Origin: Octopus sinensis
Lineage: Eukaryota
DNA length: 64,000 nucleotides
Assembly (NCBI RefSeq): GCF_006345805.1
Contig: NC_043005.1
Span: 10,292,001-10,356,000 of the forward strand
Reading direction: 5' to 3'
The notes under the pieces were generated by a model. That model saw only the letters and a list, made by a program, of their open reading frames with translations. It did not search any database and was not told the DNA's origin. Shown piece after piece: positions 2,496-63,570 of this stretch (its first letter is position 1; each line of letters opens with the position of its first letter). Made by a program: the position numbers and the translations under genes.

Positions 2496-2765
2496 TATAT
2501 ATATATTTATAGGTTTATTTCTAGAACCTCAAAGATGAACATGATCATGTACATATATGAATATATATATAAATCTATATGTATCATAAATGTGTGTGTG
2601 TGTGTCATTTTTTATGTGCATAAAATTGTGCATAGAAATAAGAATTTATGTAAATCTGTATTTATATGTACATGTGTATGAGCATGAATGTGTTAATCTG
2701 TGTACATACAAGTGATATGTAAATCAAAAAGAGTTGATGGCAAAAAAAAATAAAACAATAAAATA

Positions 2766-3180
2766 GGCGCAGGAGTGGCTGTGTGGTAAGTAGCTTGCTA
2801 ACCAACCACACGGTTCCGGGTTCAGTCCCACTGCGTGGCATCTTGGGCAAGTGTCTTCTGCTATAGCCTCGGGCCGACCAATGCCTTGTGAGTGGATTTG
2901 GTAGACGGAAACTGAAAGAAGCCTGTCGCATATATGTATATACATATATAAGTGTGTGTGTATAGTTTGTGTGTGTGTGTTTTGTCCCCCTAGCATTGCT
3001 TGACAACCGATGCTGGTGTGTTTACGTCCCCGTCACATAGCGGTTCGGCAAAAGAGACCGATAGAATAAGTACTGGGCTTACAAAGAATAAGTCCCGGGG
3101 TCGATTTGTTCGATTAAAGGCGGTGCTCCAGCATGGCCGCAGTCAAATGACTGAAACAATTAAAAGAGAAAAAAAGAGAA
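2766..3180 (+). mobile_element. tRNA-derived SINE family A with internal (TA)/(TG) microsatellite
   Basis: Head ggcgcaggagtggctgtgtggtaag...ggttcagtccc and 3' ...ccagcatggccgcagtcaaatgactgaaac plus tail. Near-identical copies at 6207, 58783, 63167. Confidence 0.92.
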
Positions 3181-3451
3181 TAGGAGAAAAATGTGGGGTT
3201 TTTTCATAATTGTAATAAATAATAATCTTTAACTAGATCTAAACAGGAATACTTTAAATTCAATGAATATTATTTCTACAGCAAAGGTAGAAAAATAAGG
3301 AAATAAGCAAAACTTATTTGATTTGTATGTTAAGTGAGTATATAAATCTTGTTACACACACACACACACACACACATATGTGTGCACAAGTGTGTGTGCA
3401 TATAACTTATTCTAACACCTGCTTTTCCATTATTGTATTTATATACATACA

Positions 3452-6170: not shown

Positions 6171-6204
<34 letters not shown>

Positions 6205-6206
6205 CA

Positions 6207-6377
6207 GGCGCAGGATTGGCTGTGTGGTAAGTAGCTTGCCTACCAACCACATGGTTCCAGGTTCAGTCCCACTGCGTGGCACCTTGGGCAAGTGTCTTCT
6301 ACTATAGCCTCGGGCCGACCAAAGCCTTGTGAGTGGATTTGGTAGACGGAAGCTGAAAGAAGCCCGTCGTATATATG

Positions 6378-6432
<55 letters not shown>

Positions 6433-6637
6433 TTGTGTGTCTGTGTTTGTCCCCCTAGCATTGCTTGACAACCGATGCTGGTGTGTTTATGTCCCTGTCA
6501 CTTAGCGGTTCGGCAAAAGAGACCGATAGAATAAGTACTGGGATTACAAAGAATAAGTCCCAGGGTCGAGTTGCTCGACTAAAGGCGGTGCTCCAGCATG
6601 GCCGCAGTCAAATGACTGAAACAAGTAAAAAGAGAGA

Positions 6638-6638
<1 letters not shown>
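6207..6638 (+). mobile_element. SINE family A, full length
   Basis: Near-identical to 2766-3180. Confidence 0.92.
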
Positions 6639-6669
<31 letters not shown>

Positions 6670-6713
6670 GTATATGTCAGTATTTATGCAATGAATATGT
6701 GTTTATGTGTGTT

Positions 6714-6772
<59 letters not shown>

Positions 6773-15498: not shown

Positions 15499-15705
15499 GT
15501 TAATCCAAACAAGAAAACACAAAAAAAACACAGCAACGTGAGGACGTGGAACAAATAAAGTATTATTGGACGCTCAGGAAAGAAGGGAAGAAGGAGGGTT
15601 TAACGTTTCGAGCGGAGCTCTTCGTCGGAAACAAAGGAGAAGGAAAGATCCTGAGAAGGGAAGACAGAGGAAAAAAAATTGCTGGCGGTGCTCACGAGGT
15701 CACAT
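15498..15705 (-). mobile_element. Family H1 mini-element, full unit with intact hammerhead
   Basis: Same two termini as 38141-38346; abuts (TA)n. Confidence 0.85.
15598..15632 (-). ncRNA. Minimal type I hammerhead ribozyme motif (GUU triplet, palindromic stem III)
   Basis: Minus strand reads GUUU-CCGACGA-A-GAGC(UCC)GCUC-GAAA-CG-U-U/AAAC. Stems I and II are perfect; loopless stem III ACGU implies a dimeric fold. Confidence 0.8.
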
Positions 15706-15707
15706 CT

Positions 15708-15733
15708 GTAATAACAGATTTCTTGAAAATTGT

Positions 15734-15827
<94 letters not shown>

Positions 15828-15866
15828 TATATATATGTATACAATTTTTAAGAAATCTGTTTTTAC
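15708..15866. repeat. ~159-bp quasi-palindrome centred on (TA)n
   Basis: Arms gtaataacagatttcttgaaaattgtatacata and tatgtatacaatttttaagaaatctgtttttac match at 31/33. Confidence 0.9.
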
Positions 15867-53450: not shown

Positions 53451-54345
53451 CATCATTATCATCTTTTGACATCTGTTCTCCATGCTGGCATGGGTTGGAT
53501 AGTTTGACAGGAGCTGGCCAGCTGGAGAGCTGCTCAGACTCCAGTTGTCTGTTTTGGTATAATTTCTAAGGTTGGATGCCCATCCTAATGTCAACCACTT
53601 TACAAATTGTACTTGGTGCTTTCATGTGGCACTGACACAGGTGCCTTTATGTGGCACTGGTTTGGGTGCTTTTGCGACACTGGCATGGGCACTTTTATAT
53701 GGCACCAATGCACTGATGCCTTTGCATGGCACCAGCACCCACATACCTGCAAGACTAGGATTTCTCAGCTGAGAGAGTGATATAGAAGACATGCCTGTAT
53801 GCATGGACAGTCATGATTTTACTTAGTTTTACATGTCTTCTCAAGCACAGCAAATCACCAGAAATCTCAATTCATTGTCATCTCTTATGTGAGGCCCAAC
53901 ATCTGAAGATCCGTTGTCACCACTTTGTCCCACATCTTCCTGGGCCTACCCCTTCCACATGTTCCCCCCACAACTAGAAATTGGCACTTCTTGATGCAGC
54001 TGTCCTCATTCATATGCATCGCATGACCATACCAGCACAGTGTTCTCTTTTGTACCCTTCATCTGATGCCTCATATTCCCAACTTTTCTCTTAAATCACT
54101 TACACTGTTGTACATGCACACTGATATTTCCCATCCAACAGAGCATGCTGGCTTCATTTCTTACAAGCCTTTGCACATCCTCAGTAGTCATAACTCTTGT
54201 CTCACTGCCATGTAGCATAGCTGCTTGTACACAGGCTTCATACAATCTGCCTTTCACTTTGAGGGAGAAGTCCTTTGTTACCAACAAAGATAGCAGCTCT
54301 CTGAAGTTTGCTCAGCCTGTTTTTATTCTAGCAGCTATGCTTTAT
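53451..54345 (-). mobile_element. Truncated RTE LINE: ORF2 end contiguous with family D 3'UTR
   Basis: LLVTKDFSLKVKGRLYEACVQAAMLHGSET...LCWYGHAMHMNEDS, then the D motif chain and (cat)n. Confidence 0.85.
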
Positions 54346-56429: not shown

Positions 56430-57293
56430 CCATGCAGAAATTGCAGGAGTTACTTGGTGACACTGCAAGCTCTCCTAGCAGTGGCTAAAACTATTGCCTT
56501 GTAGGAATCTCTTCTTTGTAATCTGGAGGTGTATGAGTCTTACAAGCTTTTTAACCCTTAGCCTATACACTTCACTTGTGTAGTGCAGCAAAGACTGAAG
56601 TTACCTTCACTTGTGGAAGGGTTCTATCTGTAGTCTCTTGTCAACTATAGCTAACTTGAACTAGTTATACCTATATTTGTCATACCTATATTTATGGTAT
56701 AACCTTCAGTCCTTTGGTTTCTAAATGAATCTTCTGCAGGAAATAGACATTGCCATATGGCAATATCTGTAAGGACCTTGTCAGACCCCTACTTGTCTCA
56801 GTCTTCCTCCAATGTCCTAGAACATCCAGTTGAAATGTGGTTCAGGATACAAAGAGTTTCTCCACATTTGTTTGCAGGATGGGTCTTCTTCATTGCTCCA
56901 TATTTTAAGGTTATTTGTAGTTGGCAAGAGGACATTTTCCTTGGTCAATACTCCAGTTTCCTCCAGGACAATAGGTGATCAAGTACCTGGCTCAATGGGT
57001 GCTTGAATGACTCAGACTACTCCGACAATCTCCTTGTATCTCCAGTATGTTTCCCTTCTTTCACATGTGTGCTACACTTTATGGTCTTGTTGGCATATCC
57101 AATTCCCTCATCACTTCAGATAGTAGTAACGTGCTGACTGCTCTTATCTTGGTGGCTTTGAATTCTTCCACTACTGATGAAATTGGTTAGTAGAGCTTGA
57201 AGGTTTTGCTGTATAGTTTTGACTGAGCTGAAATTTGGGGAAATGTCCAGCCACCTTCTTTATTTGCTACCCAAACTCTCCATTGTCTACATC
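56430..57293 (-). mobile_element. Decayed HERO-type non-LTR retrotransposon fragment (restriction-like endonuclease class)
   Basis: Frameshifted translation: RRWLDISPNFSSV / LYSKTFKLY*PISSVVEEFKATKIRAVSTLLLS / LLPTTNNLKIWSNEEDPSCKQ / CGETLCILNHISTGC (CCHC knuckle) / DKVLTDIA. Confidence 0.7.
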
Positions 57294-58489: not shown

Positions 58490-59405
58490 AAAGGCCATGC
58501 AGCTGCTTCACATATCATTTGGATTGATGCGGTTAATGTTCATTTCAACATATATAAGTTGGTGTTTGAAAGAAAAATGTGTAGGAAGGGAATTTCAGAA
58601 GATTGCTGTTCAAGGGAGGAAGGATTGGGTAAAATGTGTAGTACTGTGTTTAGGACATGAAACTCAAAAATTAAGAGGGTTGACTGGAGGAGAAAAGATA
58701 GTGGAGTTAGTTCTCCTGAGTGAAGAAGGCATGTCCTTAGTTTATTCAAATAAGCAGAAACTATATGAATAATGAACTAAGAGGCGCAGAAGTGGCTGTG
58801 TGGTAAGTAGCTTGCTTACCAACCACATGGTTCTGTGTTCAGTCCCACTGCGTGGCATCTTGGGCAAGTGTCTTCTACTATAGCCTCAGGCCGACCAAAG
58901 CCTTGTGAGTGGATTTGGTAGACGGAAACTGAAAGAAGCCCGTCACATATATGTATATATATATATATATATGTGCGTGTGTGTTTGTGTGTCTGTGTTT
59001 GTCCCCCTAGCATTGCTTGACAACCGATGCTGGTGTGTTTACGTCCCCATCACTTAGCGGTTCGGCAAAAGAGACTGATAGAATAAGTACTGGGCTTACA
59101 AAGAATAAGTCCCGGGGTCGAGTTGCTCGACTAAAGGCGGTGCTCCAGCATGGCCGCAGTCAAATGACTGAAACAAGTAAAAGAGTAAAAGAGAGAGTAA
59201 GACACAATAAGCACAGAACACTGATTCACAGAATCTGCCTGTGAACCAGTGGTTGATGCTGTTTGGTGTTGAAATTTTGCCAATCTATCAGTTGTGCTTC
59301 TTCTAGATGTAGTCTGAGAGTCTGTGTGTACAACAGTATCAGCTGCAGAATCCCATGGATACGAATAATACTCCACTATGAATCTTACTTGAGTTTTATG
59401 CAACA
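58490..59405 (-). mobile_element. Decayed Jockey/CR1-group LINE 3' fragment, split by a SINE
   Basis: LHKTQVRFIVEYYSYPWDSAA ... QPLVHR ... FTQSFLP*TAIF*NSLPTHIF. Confidence 0.75.
58783..59197 (+). mobile_element. SINE family A, full length
   Basis: Near-identical to other A copies; possible TSD taaga. Confidence 0.92.
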
Positions 59406-60199: not shown

Positions 60200-61663
60200 G
60201 CAAGTCTTGACAGAGCCTCAATTCTGCTGAGAAAGACAAGTCTTCACAAGTACAGCATATTACTATCCATCTTGGTTTCTCATCATCCTTTCTGAGAGAC
60301 ATCTTGAGGTCATTCTTCACCGCTTCATCCCACATTTTCCTAGGTCTTCCTCTTCCACAGGCTCCTCATCTATCTGCATCACACGACCATACCAGCACAG
60401 TCTTCTCTCCTGTGCACATATGATGCCTCTTATGGCCAATTTCTCTCTCAGCACATTTGTTCATTGTTGTACATGCTCACTGATGTTGCACATCCATTGG
60501 AACATACATGTTTCATTTCTCTCTAGTCTCCACATATCCTCTGCATTACAGTCCATGCTTCACAACCATGTAGCATTGCTGGTCATACAGAGGCATTATA
60601 TATCTTCCTTTCACTTTGAGAAAGAGACCTTTTGTTATCAACAGAAGTAAAAGCTCTTTGAAGTTTCTCCAGCCAGTTCTTATTCTAGCAACTATACTTT
60701 CATAGCATCTTTCTCCACTGATGTCTTGCAAACAACTTGCACATGCAAGTGCTACCAGTTAAAAGCTCCGTATACCGGAAGCTAGCAAGTGTATCGGGTC
60801 ATCAGGAGAGAATGCGCGCTGTTTCGGGGCCTACCTCTCGACGGTATCAATGCTCACTGATATGAGGCCCCGCTTGCTAGATCAGCTGGTTATGAAGAAC
60901 TCAATATACTTCTAGCCATCGCTCATCGTCTCTTTTTAACCAAATCCAGTGGCTAGCCTTCTCTACTGTAGATTGGATATCAGTCATGGATCACTTAGAT
61001 AACATAATCTATCTACTAGTACTACCTAAACCTCCTGGACATTCCAGAATATCTATTTCTTGTGTGCTCTTATTATTTATTATTCCTGCTCATCTGCCGC
61101 AAACAGATTCCACTTTCCTGTGATTCCCCTGCACCCCCTATGTGCCCATAGTTATTAGATTACTGAGTAAACATACAGAACAAAGCCATTTACTCAAAGG
61201 GGTTAGTATCCTGTATGTTTTTCTGGTAACTAGAACTGTGCTTTAAGTTAACTTTAAGACCCTTTGATTCCAGGTTTTGCTTCTACACCAGGAATTCCAT
61301 TTCTAATTCTACTACTGTTTCAGCTATAAGAACAAGGTCATTGGCACTGAGGGCTTCCCATGGGCAACTAGTCTTAAGTTCTTTTATTATGTCCTGAAGG
61401 ACTGATAAACAGGAGGGGACTGATAAACAGGAGGGGACTGATAACTGAGCCCTGACGATCTCCTATCTTCATACTAAATTCATCATTGTATTCATTGTTA
61501 ACTCTCACTTTGCTGGCAGCATCCTTGTACATGGCTTGCATAGCAGTTACTAGTCATTCATCTACTTCTGGCTTCCATGGTAACCACCAGATGTGGGAGC
61601 GAGGCACCCTGTCAAAGGCTTTCTCCTGGTCAATGAATGTTTAAATACATTGGTTTGCTTTTT
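60200..61663 (-). mobile_element. Dead RTE LINE reverse-transcriptase region
   Basis: EKAFDRVPRS, QGSVISPLLF, YADD decayed to SAND, Cys/His insert (WLCSVC...WAHRGC...VCGR), VDRLCYLSD, ESIVARIRTGWRNFKELL. Confidence 0.88.
60729..60989. other. ~261-bp structured, CpG-rich insertion of unknown class inside the RTE
   Basis: The LINE frame CYLSD|QDISGERC rejoins when this segment is removed. It contains several nested 7-8 bp inverted repeats. Confidence 0.75.
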
Positions 61664-62455: not shown

Positions 62456-63166
62456 TCCAGTATTTTCTCATCTTCTTAATGTTCTAAGTTTGAATTTGAA
62501 AAACTATATATTTAAAATTAGCAAGAGTAGGAAAATTAACAATAATGAGCAGACTTGTCTTTCTCGTGTGAAATTTTCTACGATGCTTTTTGATGCATCG
62601 ATTTATCCTCAGTTTGGTTTCCATTGGGAGTTCGAGCCCTTAAGATTATAAAGACATGCAAAATGAATCAACTTAATTTTGTATTGATCAACAAAAAGAT
62701 AATAGCGCAAGTAACATTTATGTGATGGCCTTGAAGGTGGCCGTAGTGATGATGAAGATGGTGTTGGTGTCTGTAATAATATCTAACCTCCCAGATCTGT
62801 AACAGCCATTGGGAAAATTCAAAACCTCTGTGCAAGTGTTATGTTGTGGCCTGAAGCAATAAACTTGGGCAATGTGAGGAATATATAATGAAATCATCGA
62901 TTCTCTTCATCATCACAAGTAATTCAGTTTTTTAAGAAAATCATCATCATCATCATGATTACCATCACCACTACTACCAAAACCTTAATAAATGAAGGAT
63001 AAAACCTCTATGTGGTTTCACAAACTGATAGAAATAACTTCCAATTGTCCTTTAAACCAGCATCTATAATTTTAAAGAAACTACAGCCACATTAAATAAT
63101 GGAGTCCTACCTACAATATTTAAGTTGCTGATAACATATTTAATTCAAGGCGCATTGATAAACATA

Positions 63167-63570
63167 GGCGCAGGAATGGCTGTGTGGTAAGTAGCTTGCT
63201 AACCAGCCACATGGTTCCGGATTCAGTCCCACTGCGTGGCACCTTGGGCAAGTGTCTTCTACTATAGCCTCAGGCCGACCAATGCCTTGTGAGTGGATTT
63301 GGTAGACGGAAACTGAAAGAAGCCCGTCGCATATATGTATATATATATATATATGTGTGTGTGTGTTTGTGTGTCTGTGTTTGTCCCCCTAGCATTGCTT
63401 GACAACCTATGCTGGCGTGTTTATGTCCCTGTCACTTAGCGGTTCAGCAAAAGAGACTGATAGAATAAGTACTGGGCTTACAAAGAATAAGTCCTTGGGT
63501 CTAGTTGCTCGACTAAAGGTGGTGCTCCAGCATGGCCGCAGTCAAATGACTGAAACAAGTAAAAGAGTAA
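63167..63570 (+). mobile_element. SINE family A, full length
   Basis: Near-identical to other A copies. Confidence 0.92.

What the first reader, a model, noticed from the sequence alone, without database searches (positions are those of the whole stretch)
60729..60989. Unclassified ~261-bp highly structured insertion splitting an RTE reverse transcriptase
Seen: removing this segment rejoins the minus-strand LINE frame (...CYLSD|QDISGERCYES..., matching the RTE motif YLGDQVSSGGGC). I find no convincing TSD, TIR, tRNA head or tail. It is near 50% GC with about a dozen CpGs, in a window that is otherwise CpG-poor, and no second copy is visible. Its stems are nested: accagtt/agctggt encloses a tccg/cgga hairpin and ctagcaag/cttgctag (60782, 60873), which encloses cggggcct/aggccccg (60825, 60865), which encloses acc/ggt and tatca/tgata hairpins. 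These are flanked by acttgca/tgcaagt and ctagcca/tggctag hairpins, and actgatat/atatcagt could form a long-range alternative pair. One arm is nearly contiguous while the partner arm is interrupted by looped-out subdomains, as in a multi-junction ncRNA. Inference: a young insertion of an undescribed structured RNA or small mobile unit, or foreign/artefactual sequence.
Basis: partly seen in the sequence, partly recalled or inferred. Interest (0 to 1): 0.85.

Follow-up and report, generated by a model that had tools for sequence, protein, structure and literature searches.

The report
Hero retrotransposon tail with hammerhead-like fold
The insert is the worn tail end of a common jumping gene (a Hero-type LINE), and in intact relatives that tail folds into an unusual, untested rearranged version of the hammerhead self-cutting RNA.

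Summary
The insertion is real but not unclassified. It is the 5'-truncated 3' end (about 60721-60980, minus strand) of a Hero-type non-LTR retrotransposon: the last ~25 codons of an RT plus restriction-like-endonuclease ORF (85% identity to a relative) and ~180 nt of 3'UTR. Public runs hold the family in the order of thousands of copies, with one fixed and one truncated end. This copy folds only marginally (z -1.9) and is decayed.

The family tail is the interesting part. In 58 of 83 related loci the 3'UTR holds a full hammerhead core in the non-circular SGC order. Stems I and III covary, position 17 is never G and position 7 is free. Unlike the validated SGC ribozymes of Eckert et al. 2023, the chain is open between A9 and G10.1, where two extra helices close a junction. 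I found no paper linking Hero to a hammerhead.

Odds: Hero identity about 0.95; regulated self-cleavage about 0.5; protein-docking fold only about 0.4. No cleavage was tested.

The parts
60302..60720 (-).
   Evidence: 73% to a second copy at 54003-54343; relatives P0126-P0141
60721..60728 (-). Ambiguous 8 nt: 3' terminus of the Hero copy and/or host codons (microhomology)
   Evidence: family contigs align to 60719-60726 with mixed flanks beyond (tables 7 and 8); host relatives with DQVSS would also fit
60721..60980 (-). 5'-truncated Hero-type LINE fragment (5' edge 60980-60989 uncertain; no clear target-site duplication)
60901..60979 (-). Last ~25 codons and stop of the RT-RLE ORF (IQSTVEKASHWIWLKRDDERWLE..)
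60868..60880 (-).
   Evidence: pairs with 60782-60789 (8 of 8) and 60795-60798 (3 of 4; 4 of 4 with the family-majority letter)
60853..60867 (-). Hairpin H; 13-14 nt holding strand B are missing from this copy at 60852/60853
   Evidence: 13-gap alignments table 8
60840..60846 (-). Stem III 5' strand and GUC triplet; predicted scissile bond between 60840 and 60839
   Evidence: analogy to hammerheads (inference)
60834..60839 (-). Stem I 5' strand
   Evidence: 6 of 6 pairs with 60806-60811
60817..60831 (-). Strand B' (stem II position), GAAAC block and stem III 3' strand
   Evidence: stem III 4 of 6 in this copy, 6 of 6 with family-majority letters at 60820 and 60845
60799..60811 (-). Stem I 3' strand and CUGAUGA block
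60782..60798 (-). Helix A, 3' strand
60735..60779 (-). Two terminal hairpins; the one at 60767-60779 is also seen in L002 and L003
60990..61402 (-). Decayed host LINE ORF, upstream part
   Evidence: X2 record 16 and X1 record 8 continue into it

Best explanation
Identity (shown, about 0.95): a Hero-type LINE was copied by target-primed reverse transcription into an old RTE copy and stopped after ~260 nt, leaving the ORF end and 3'UTR. The copy has since decayed and is dead. Fold (shown by covariation): intact Hero 3'UTRs form a ~125-nt double-pseudoknot, in the order A - hairpin H - B - D - stem III - NUH - stem I - B' - GAAA - III' - D' - I' - CUGAnGA - A'. This matches the described architecture of a type-SGC hammerhead (B = stem II, D = the stem I-II helix), re-opened between A9 and G10.1, where helices A and H close the junction. 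Function (inferred, about 0.5): a slow or protein-gated self-cleaving and re-ligating ribozyme inside the protein-binding tail. Uncut or re-joined RNA is the template. Cutting would process read-through or tandem transcripts, or retire RNA not bound by the element's protein. The products would stay paired through A, B, D and III.
For: Protein: P0003 85% identity, E 3.8e-7; P0006 is a 1089-aa RT protein ending in the same motif; its best PDB hits are R2 proteins. The VQK[AG]G motif occurs only in three HERO rows of the RT alignment in PMC5678591 file 6 and in 75 of 95 relatives of 800 aa or more. Copies: summed depth 1.2e5-8.6e5 over 60728-60958 in X1 and X2 vs 29-72 in the unique flank; mixed flanks at 60721-60726 (agreement 0.40-0.48); one shared continuation at 60980-60989 (0.72-0.78). 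Core: 58 of 83 loci, vs 0 of 58 reverse strands, 0 of 50 upstream stretches and 2 of 580 shuffles. H17 was not constrained: C26, U15, A13, G0 of 54; N7 U27, C15, G6, A6. A-H-B junction with no unpaired bases: 27 of 38 non-redundant loci vs 83 of 1406 swapped and 24 of 760 shuffled. All six helices covary: 79.6% paired vs 58.0% shuffled and 35-48% slid. Family-majority letters restore stem III of the window copy. One extra base between A9 and G10.1 is natural in other hammerheads (PMC3705267, PMC4209133 passages).
Against: No cleavage was tested. Eckert et al. state that no known hammerhead has more than 1-2 nt between CUGAnGA and its stems; two helices there have no precedent that I found. A cis 10.1-11.1 pair is possible in only 5 of 54 loci. 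RNAalifold kept only helix B plus a pair that ties up catalytic G12 (25 of 28 rows). Cutting ~120 nt from the 3' end would sever the template. Copies run through the site, with no indel listed there at 5% and no loose-end pile among the 24 of 1302 rows shown. Hero membership rests on a motif and on likeness by eye, not on a tree with named references. The descriptor fails on the window copy, and a profile from the distant loci did not find it; the link runs through L001-L003 (72-82% over 83-88 nt) and the protein.
Confidence: 0.55

Rival explanations
1. Same Hero tail, but the fold is a non-catalytic docking structure for the element's RT-endonuclease (perhaps a domesticated hammerhead), as the R2 3'UTR is for R2 protein.
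For: Core broken at A9/G10.1; possible Y-G12 pair; copies pass the site unscarred as far as listed; the position at the template's 3' end is where R2-group proteins bind (established knowledge, PMC6765202 passage). An earlier AI note read it this way (e1-7941993, unchecked lead).
Against: The helices share no bases with stems I and III, so they can coexist with the core. A binding site does not obviously predict H17 never G, free N7 and a near-constant C11.1 across loci under 80% alike, though these rules also follow from the fold alone.
Confidence: 0.38
2. The high-copy unit is a short non-autonomous element (SINE-like) that only borrowed a Hero tail.
For: Full-length copies of this exact family were not seen; loose ends reach only a median of 48-112 nt beyond the insert.
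Against: The insert itself carries the Hero coding end, and the shared continuation reads on without a stop in that frame (read by eye). O. vulgaris is reported to hold 8.2 Mb of Hero in 14 families (PMC13282606 supplement row).
Confidence: 0.05
3. Foreign DNA, an assembly artefact, a solo LTR or a Penelope end.
For: A TG...CA stretch with an imperfect 4-bp repeat can be drawn at 60727-60982 (sequence); the left junction is not bridged among the 32 records listed.
Against: Right junction bridged in X2; very high depth in 4 of 4 runs; one fixed and one truncated end; Hero protein match; no plasmid or phage match.
Confidence: 0.02

Closest known systems
Hero clade of restriction-like-endonuclease LINEs (HERO-1_BF, HERO-2_DR, HERO-1_SP)
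   Same: Single RT ORF with CCHC knuckle and PD..E..K endonuclease residues; VQK[AG]G motif; relatives in fish, lancelet and bivalves.
   Different: No 3'UTR ribozyme-like fold is described for Hero in the papers I could search. The window holds only a decayed 260-nt tail.
Type-SGC hammerhead ribozymes (HRIMA-1 and variants; Eckert et al. 2023, PMC10085705)
   Same: Block order S-G-C, a short link from stem I to the stem II position, an extra helix joining the other sides of stems I and II, and the full core (their text; our). I did not see their figures.
   Different: Theirs keep A9 joined to stem II and, by their text, were not found in genomes of known organisms. Here the chain is open at A9/G10.1, with helices A and H inserted, and the motif sits in an animal LINE 3'UTR.
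Hammerheads of Penelope-like elements (Cervera and de la Pena 2014, PMC4209133)
   Same: Retroelement terminus, conserved G10.1-C11.1, tolerance of an insertion between 9 and 10.1, head-to-tail tandems.
   Different: Type I minimal ribozymes in a terminal repeat of a different class of element, proposed to act as dimers; insertion of one base only.
HDV-like ribozymes of R2 and L1Tc
   Same: Self-cleaving RNA in a non-LTR retrotransposon that frees it from a co-transcript (PMC6765202 passages).
   Different: Different fold, at the 5' end rather than inside the 3'UTR.

Membership tests
Hero clade LINE | ORF ends in the clade's C-terminal sequence | tested here: met
   19 columns invariant between P0001 and 4 relatives, at their C-terminus
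Hero clade LINE | RT followed by CCHC knuckle and restriction-like endonuclease | tested here: met
   In relatives only: P0006 RVT_1 355-587, CCHC 870-885; P, D, E, K near-invariant in 12 C-terminal pieces. A strict PD..E..K pattern did not match P0006. The window holds only the last codons.
Hero clade LINE | RT groups with named HERO elements | tested here: inconclusive
   VQK[AG]G only in HERO rows of a published alignment and in 75 of 95 relatives; no tree with named references was built
Hero clade LINE | Dispersed copies with fixed 3' end and 5' truncation | tested here: met
   tables 2 and 7
Type-SGC hammerhead ribozyme | CUGAnGA, GAAA and NUH in S-G-C order | tested here: met
   58 of 83 loci; all three blocks present in the window copy
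Type-SGC hammerhead ribozyme | Covarying stems I and III | tested here: met
   stem III is broken in the window copy (4 of 6)
Type-SGC hammerhead ribozyme | Stem II formed by the strand directly after A9 | tested here: not met
   cis pair possible in 5 of 54; the partner comes from upstream strand B
Type-SGC hammerhead ribozyme | Helix joining the far sides of stems I and II | tested here: met
   helix D of 4 bp or more in 40 of 54; 83% paired, 6 of 6 pairs covary. Equivalence inferred from the paper's text.
Type-SGC hammerhead ribozyme | Site-specific self-cleavage after NUH | not testable with these tools
   needs an in vitro assay
Rfam RNA families | Covariance-model match | tested here: not met
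   none over the insert at E<=10; none at gathering score in 8 of 8 loci scanned
Solo LTR or MITE | Two fixed ends with target-site duplication | tested here: not met
   one end continues in other copies

The most novel reading that the evidence does not exclude
Hero retrotransposons across animals carry an active hammerhead ribozyme of a topology not described in the papers searched: the non-circular SGC permutation, further opened inside the catalytic core at A9/G10.1 and closed by a multi-helix junction. It would act as a gated nick or ligation switch at the template's 3' end, and would be the first SGC-type ribozyme placed in genomes of known organisms.
Probability: 0.45. Interest if true: 0.8.

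Novelty: new variant of a known kind. Interest (0 to 1): 0.6.

Why it matters
The insertion event is ordinary. The tail fold matters in either reading. If it cleaves, it extends hammerhead topology (a core split across strands), gives SGC ribozymes a genomic home, and raises the question of how a LINE tolerates a cutter in its own template. If it does not cleave, it is a conserved protein-docking RNA built on a ribozyme core, in a little-studied clade related to the R2 elements now used for genome engineering. One in vitro transcription gel separates the two.

Tried and rejected
No whole genome is held for this window, so copies were judged from contigs of public runs. Rfam: nothing over the insert. 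Plasmids and phages: no match. Viral contigs: 0 matches to an 18-nt motif and no confirmed protein relative among 26 candidates. A canonical-order hammerhead pattern gave 5 window matches vs 3.7 expected, none in the insert. The first host-LINE protein search failed, and Pfam gave no family for either host fragment; the RTE name therefore rests on the motif and on recall. Penelope end and solo LTR readings were dropped. No RNA holder was listed; run X8 is only guessed to be RNA, so nothing is claimed on expression. An nhmmer profile from the distant loci missed the window copy. RNAalifold on alignment A4 recovered only helix B; it cannot draw pseudoknots, and six rows are visibly misaligned. 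The supplements of PMC4640811 held none of the four terms searched. Look-ups of earlier findings by sequence or place were blank.

Full report
Observation. The minus strand reads CYLSD, 87 codons, then QDISGERCYES in one frame. Uninterrupted relatives read YLGDQVSSGGGC (P0131), so an insertion of about 260 nt does split an old LINE. The listed arms exist, and perfect inverted pairs exceed base shuffles (6 vs 1.6 at >=7 bp; 0 of 60 shuffles reach it). Global folding is marginal: z -1.94 and -1.28, matched by 9 of 49 background windows. Rfam, plasmids and phages gave nothing.

Copies and ends. No genome is held. 20 of 24 listed runs, from 11 studies, hold part of 60600-61120. I laid 4 of them at 80% likeness. 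Summed contig depth over 60728-60958 is 1.2e5-5.7e5 in X1 and 3.7e5-8.6e5 in X2, against 29 and 72 in the unique flank. The tool warns that this is no copy number, but the order is thousands. At 60721-60726 loose ends are mixed (agreement 0.40-0.48), a true terminus. At 60980-60989 they share one continuation (0.72-0.78), a truncation. The element therefore lies on the minus strand and is 5'-truncated. X2 record 16 bridges the right junction (60927-61160, 3 other letters); X2 may be the source sample. X1 and X8 have only 21-30 letters on the insert side. The left junction is not bridged among the 32 of 10,891 records listed. There is no clear target-site duplication, and 60721-60728 may be insert, host or both.

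Identity. The frame at 60904-60990 gives a 29-residue peptide. A search returned 4 of 4 candidates at E 3.8e-7 to 4.5e-4, with the match at their very C-terminus. One is a 1089-aa RT protein whose best solved relatives are R2 proteins. Its C-terminal 390 residues find 158 proteins, the named ones from fish, lancelet and bivalves. In the RT alignment of PMC5678591 (supplementary file 6, passages only) VQK[AG]G occurs only in three HERO rows, and 75 of 95 long relatives carry it. O. vulgaris is reported to hold 8.2 Mb of Hero in 14 families (PMC13282606, passages and one supplement row); that the host is an octopus is my recall from its SINEs. I file the insert as Hero-type; no tree with named references was built.

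The tail fold. 83 related loci were fetched (80 of 275 confirmed metagenome stretches, 3 from genomes). A descriptor for NUH, then GAAA, then CUGAnGA, with stems I and III of at least 3 bp, hit 58 of 83; 70 of the 83 have 200 nt or more downstream. Controls: 0 of 58 reverse strands, 0 of 50 upstream stretches, 2 of 580 shuffles. L031 was dropped because the script mis-assigned its block, and three identical motifs were merged, leaving 54. Position 17, unconstrained, was C26, U15, A13, G0; position 7 took all four bases. In 38 loci under 80% alike, stem positions 4-6, beyond the required three, pair in 36, 31, 26 (stem I) and 35, 36, 27 (stem III) of 38, vs 0.36-0.68 when partners are swapped (best-score picking favours them slightly).

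Stem II is not canonical. The base after A9 can pair with 11.1 in only 5 of 54. Instead the strand before GAAA pairs with an upstream strand B, the strand after CUGAnGA pairs with an upstream strand A, and hairpin H fills the gap with no spare bases: 40 of 54, and 27 of 38 vs 83 of 1406 swapped and 24 of 760 shuffled. A sixth helix D (4 bp or more in 40 of 54) joins the far ends. On 28 loci that I chose from the 57, mostly for a clear junction, the six-helix structure gives 79.6% paired vs 58.0% shuffled and 35-48% slid; 34 of 37 pairs change on both sides. Selection and kinship inflate this. RNAalifold alone found only helix B plus a Y-G12 pair. Rfam has no match in the 8 loci scanned.

The window copy. 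It is 82% like L003 and 80% like L002 over 87-88 nt of 3'UTR. It keeps all three core blocks, stem I (6 of 6) and helix A, but lacks 13-14 nt with strand B. Stem III is 4 of 6, and 6 of 6 with the family-majority letters at 60820 and 60845. H goes from 5 of 5 to 4 of 5 with the majority letter at 60854, which lies at the deletion edge.

How it may work. Shown: identity, truncation, covarying fold, decay. Inferred: function. Eckert et al. 2023 (PMC10085705; parts 2-5 of 8 read, supplement searched by terms, figures not seen) validated SGC hammerheads at 0.007-0.13 per min with a helix like D, found none of them in known genomes, and state that insertions next to CUGAnGA do not exceed 1-2 nt. 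One extra base at A9/G10.1 is natural in CChMVd and Penelope hammerheads (PMC3705267, PMC4209133; passages). I put regulated cleavage and re-ligation at about 0.5 because the variation follows hammerhead rules, and docking-only at about 0.4 because the core is split, G12 may be tied up, and copies pass the site without listed scars (only 24 of 1302 loose-end rows shown). Head-to-tail Hero pairs in 10 of 44 loci give a cutter something to process. The one pair I could compare (L026, L033) has different tails, which fits insertion next to older copies or template jumps better than copying of a circle. An earlier AI note on another genome (e1-7941993) saw a similar motif and judged its helices to conflict with the ribozyme. 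I find that they share no bases with stems I and III and only replace stem II. That note is a lead, not support.

Prior art. Searches for Hero with hammerhead or ribozyme, for hammerheads in non-LTR UTRs, and for non-circular or type-SGC forms listed no paper whose title or abstract start joins the two; most were seen as listings only. The Eckert main text has no 'Hero' or 'reverse transcriptase', and its supplement no 'Danio', 'Octopus' or 'Eukaryota'. PMC7650587, PMC9004415, PMC8967140 and PMC6765202 were seen as passages. Repbase, Dfam, subscription papers (including the original Hero descriptions) and bioRxiv supplements were not visible and could hold a description.

Verdict. An ordinary nested insertion of a known clade, whose family tail is a new variant of the SGC hammerhead architecture with untested activity. 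Interest 0.6.

Noticed in passing
hairpin H of loci L006, L011, L015, L025-L027, L029, L033, L034, L039, L040, L045, L056, L058, L062, L064: The H loop is self-complementary, with different cores (GATC, GGCC, ACGT, GTAC): 16 of 27 non-redundant loci vs 3.3 expected from shuffles (the null is lenient because a closing pair adds symmetry, and kin are not independent). It suggests kissing-loop dimerisation. Absent in L001-L003 and in the window's family.
   Followed up: partly
L006, L008, L019, L025, L026, L032, L039, L047, L056, L064, downstream of the tail: A second Hero 5' end follows head-to-tail 40-370 nt after CUGAnGA in 10 of 44 loci with 200 nt or more downstream (3 of them built the profile). 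7 of 38 are confirmed by ORF. L026 and L033 lie 3.7 kb apart on one contig and have different tails.
   Followed up: partly
table 5c, window 60963 back to 60822: One low-depth joined form (depth 134-303 in X1, X2, X9) goes back from the ORF end into the 3'UTR: a partial tandem of the tail in a few copies.
   Followed up: no
window 57127-57243, minus strand: Weak tblastn match (41% over 39 aa, E 0.003) to the RT region of P0009: another old LINE fragment.
   Followed up: no
window 2758-3185, 6198-6640, 58779-59202, 63158-63570 and others: A ~420-nt SINE-like repeat in many copies, 88-94% alike. It resembles octopus SINEs as I recall them; the host was not tested.
   Followed up: no
window 6501-6761 and 15601-15861: Background windows with folding z of -9.8 and -12.8, probably simple repeats or palindromic elements; not examined.
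   Followed up: no
L081, L082: Hero C-termini on short contigs of two bacterial genome records, probably animal host contamination.
   Followed up: no
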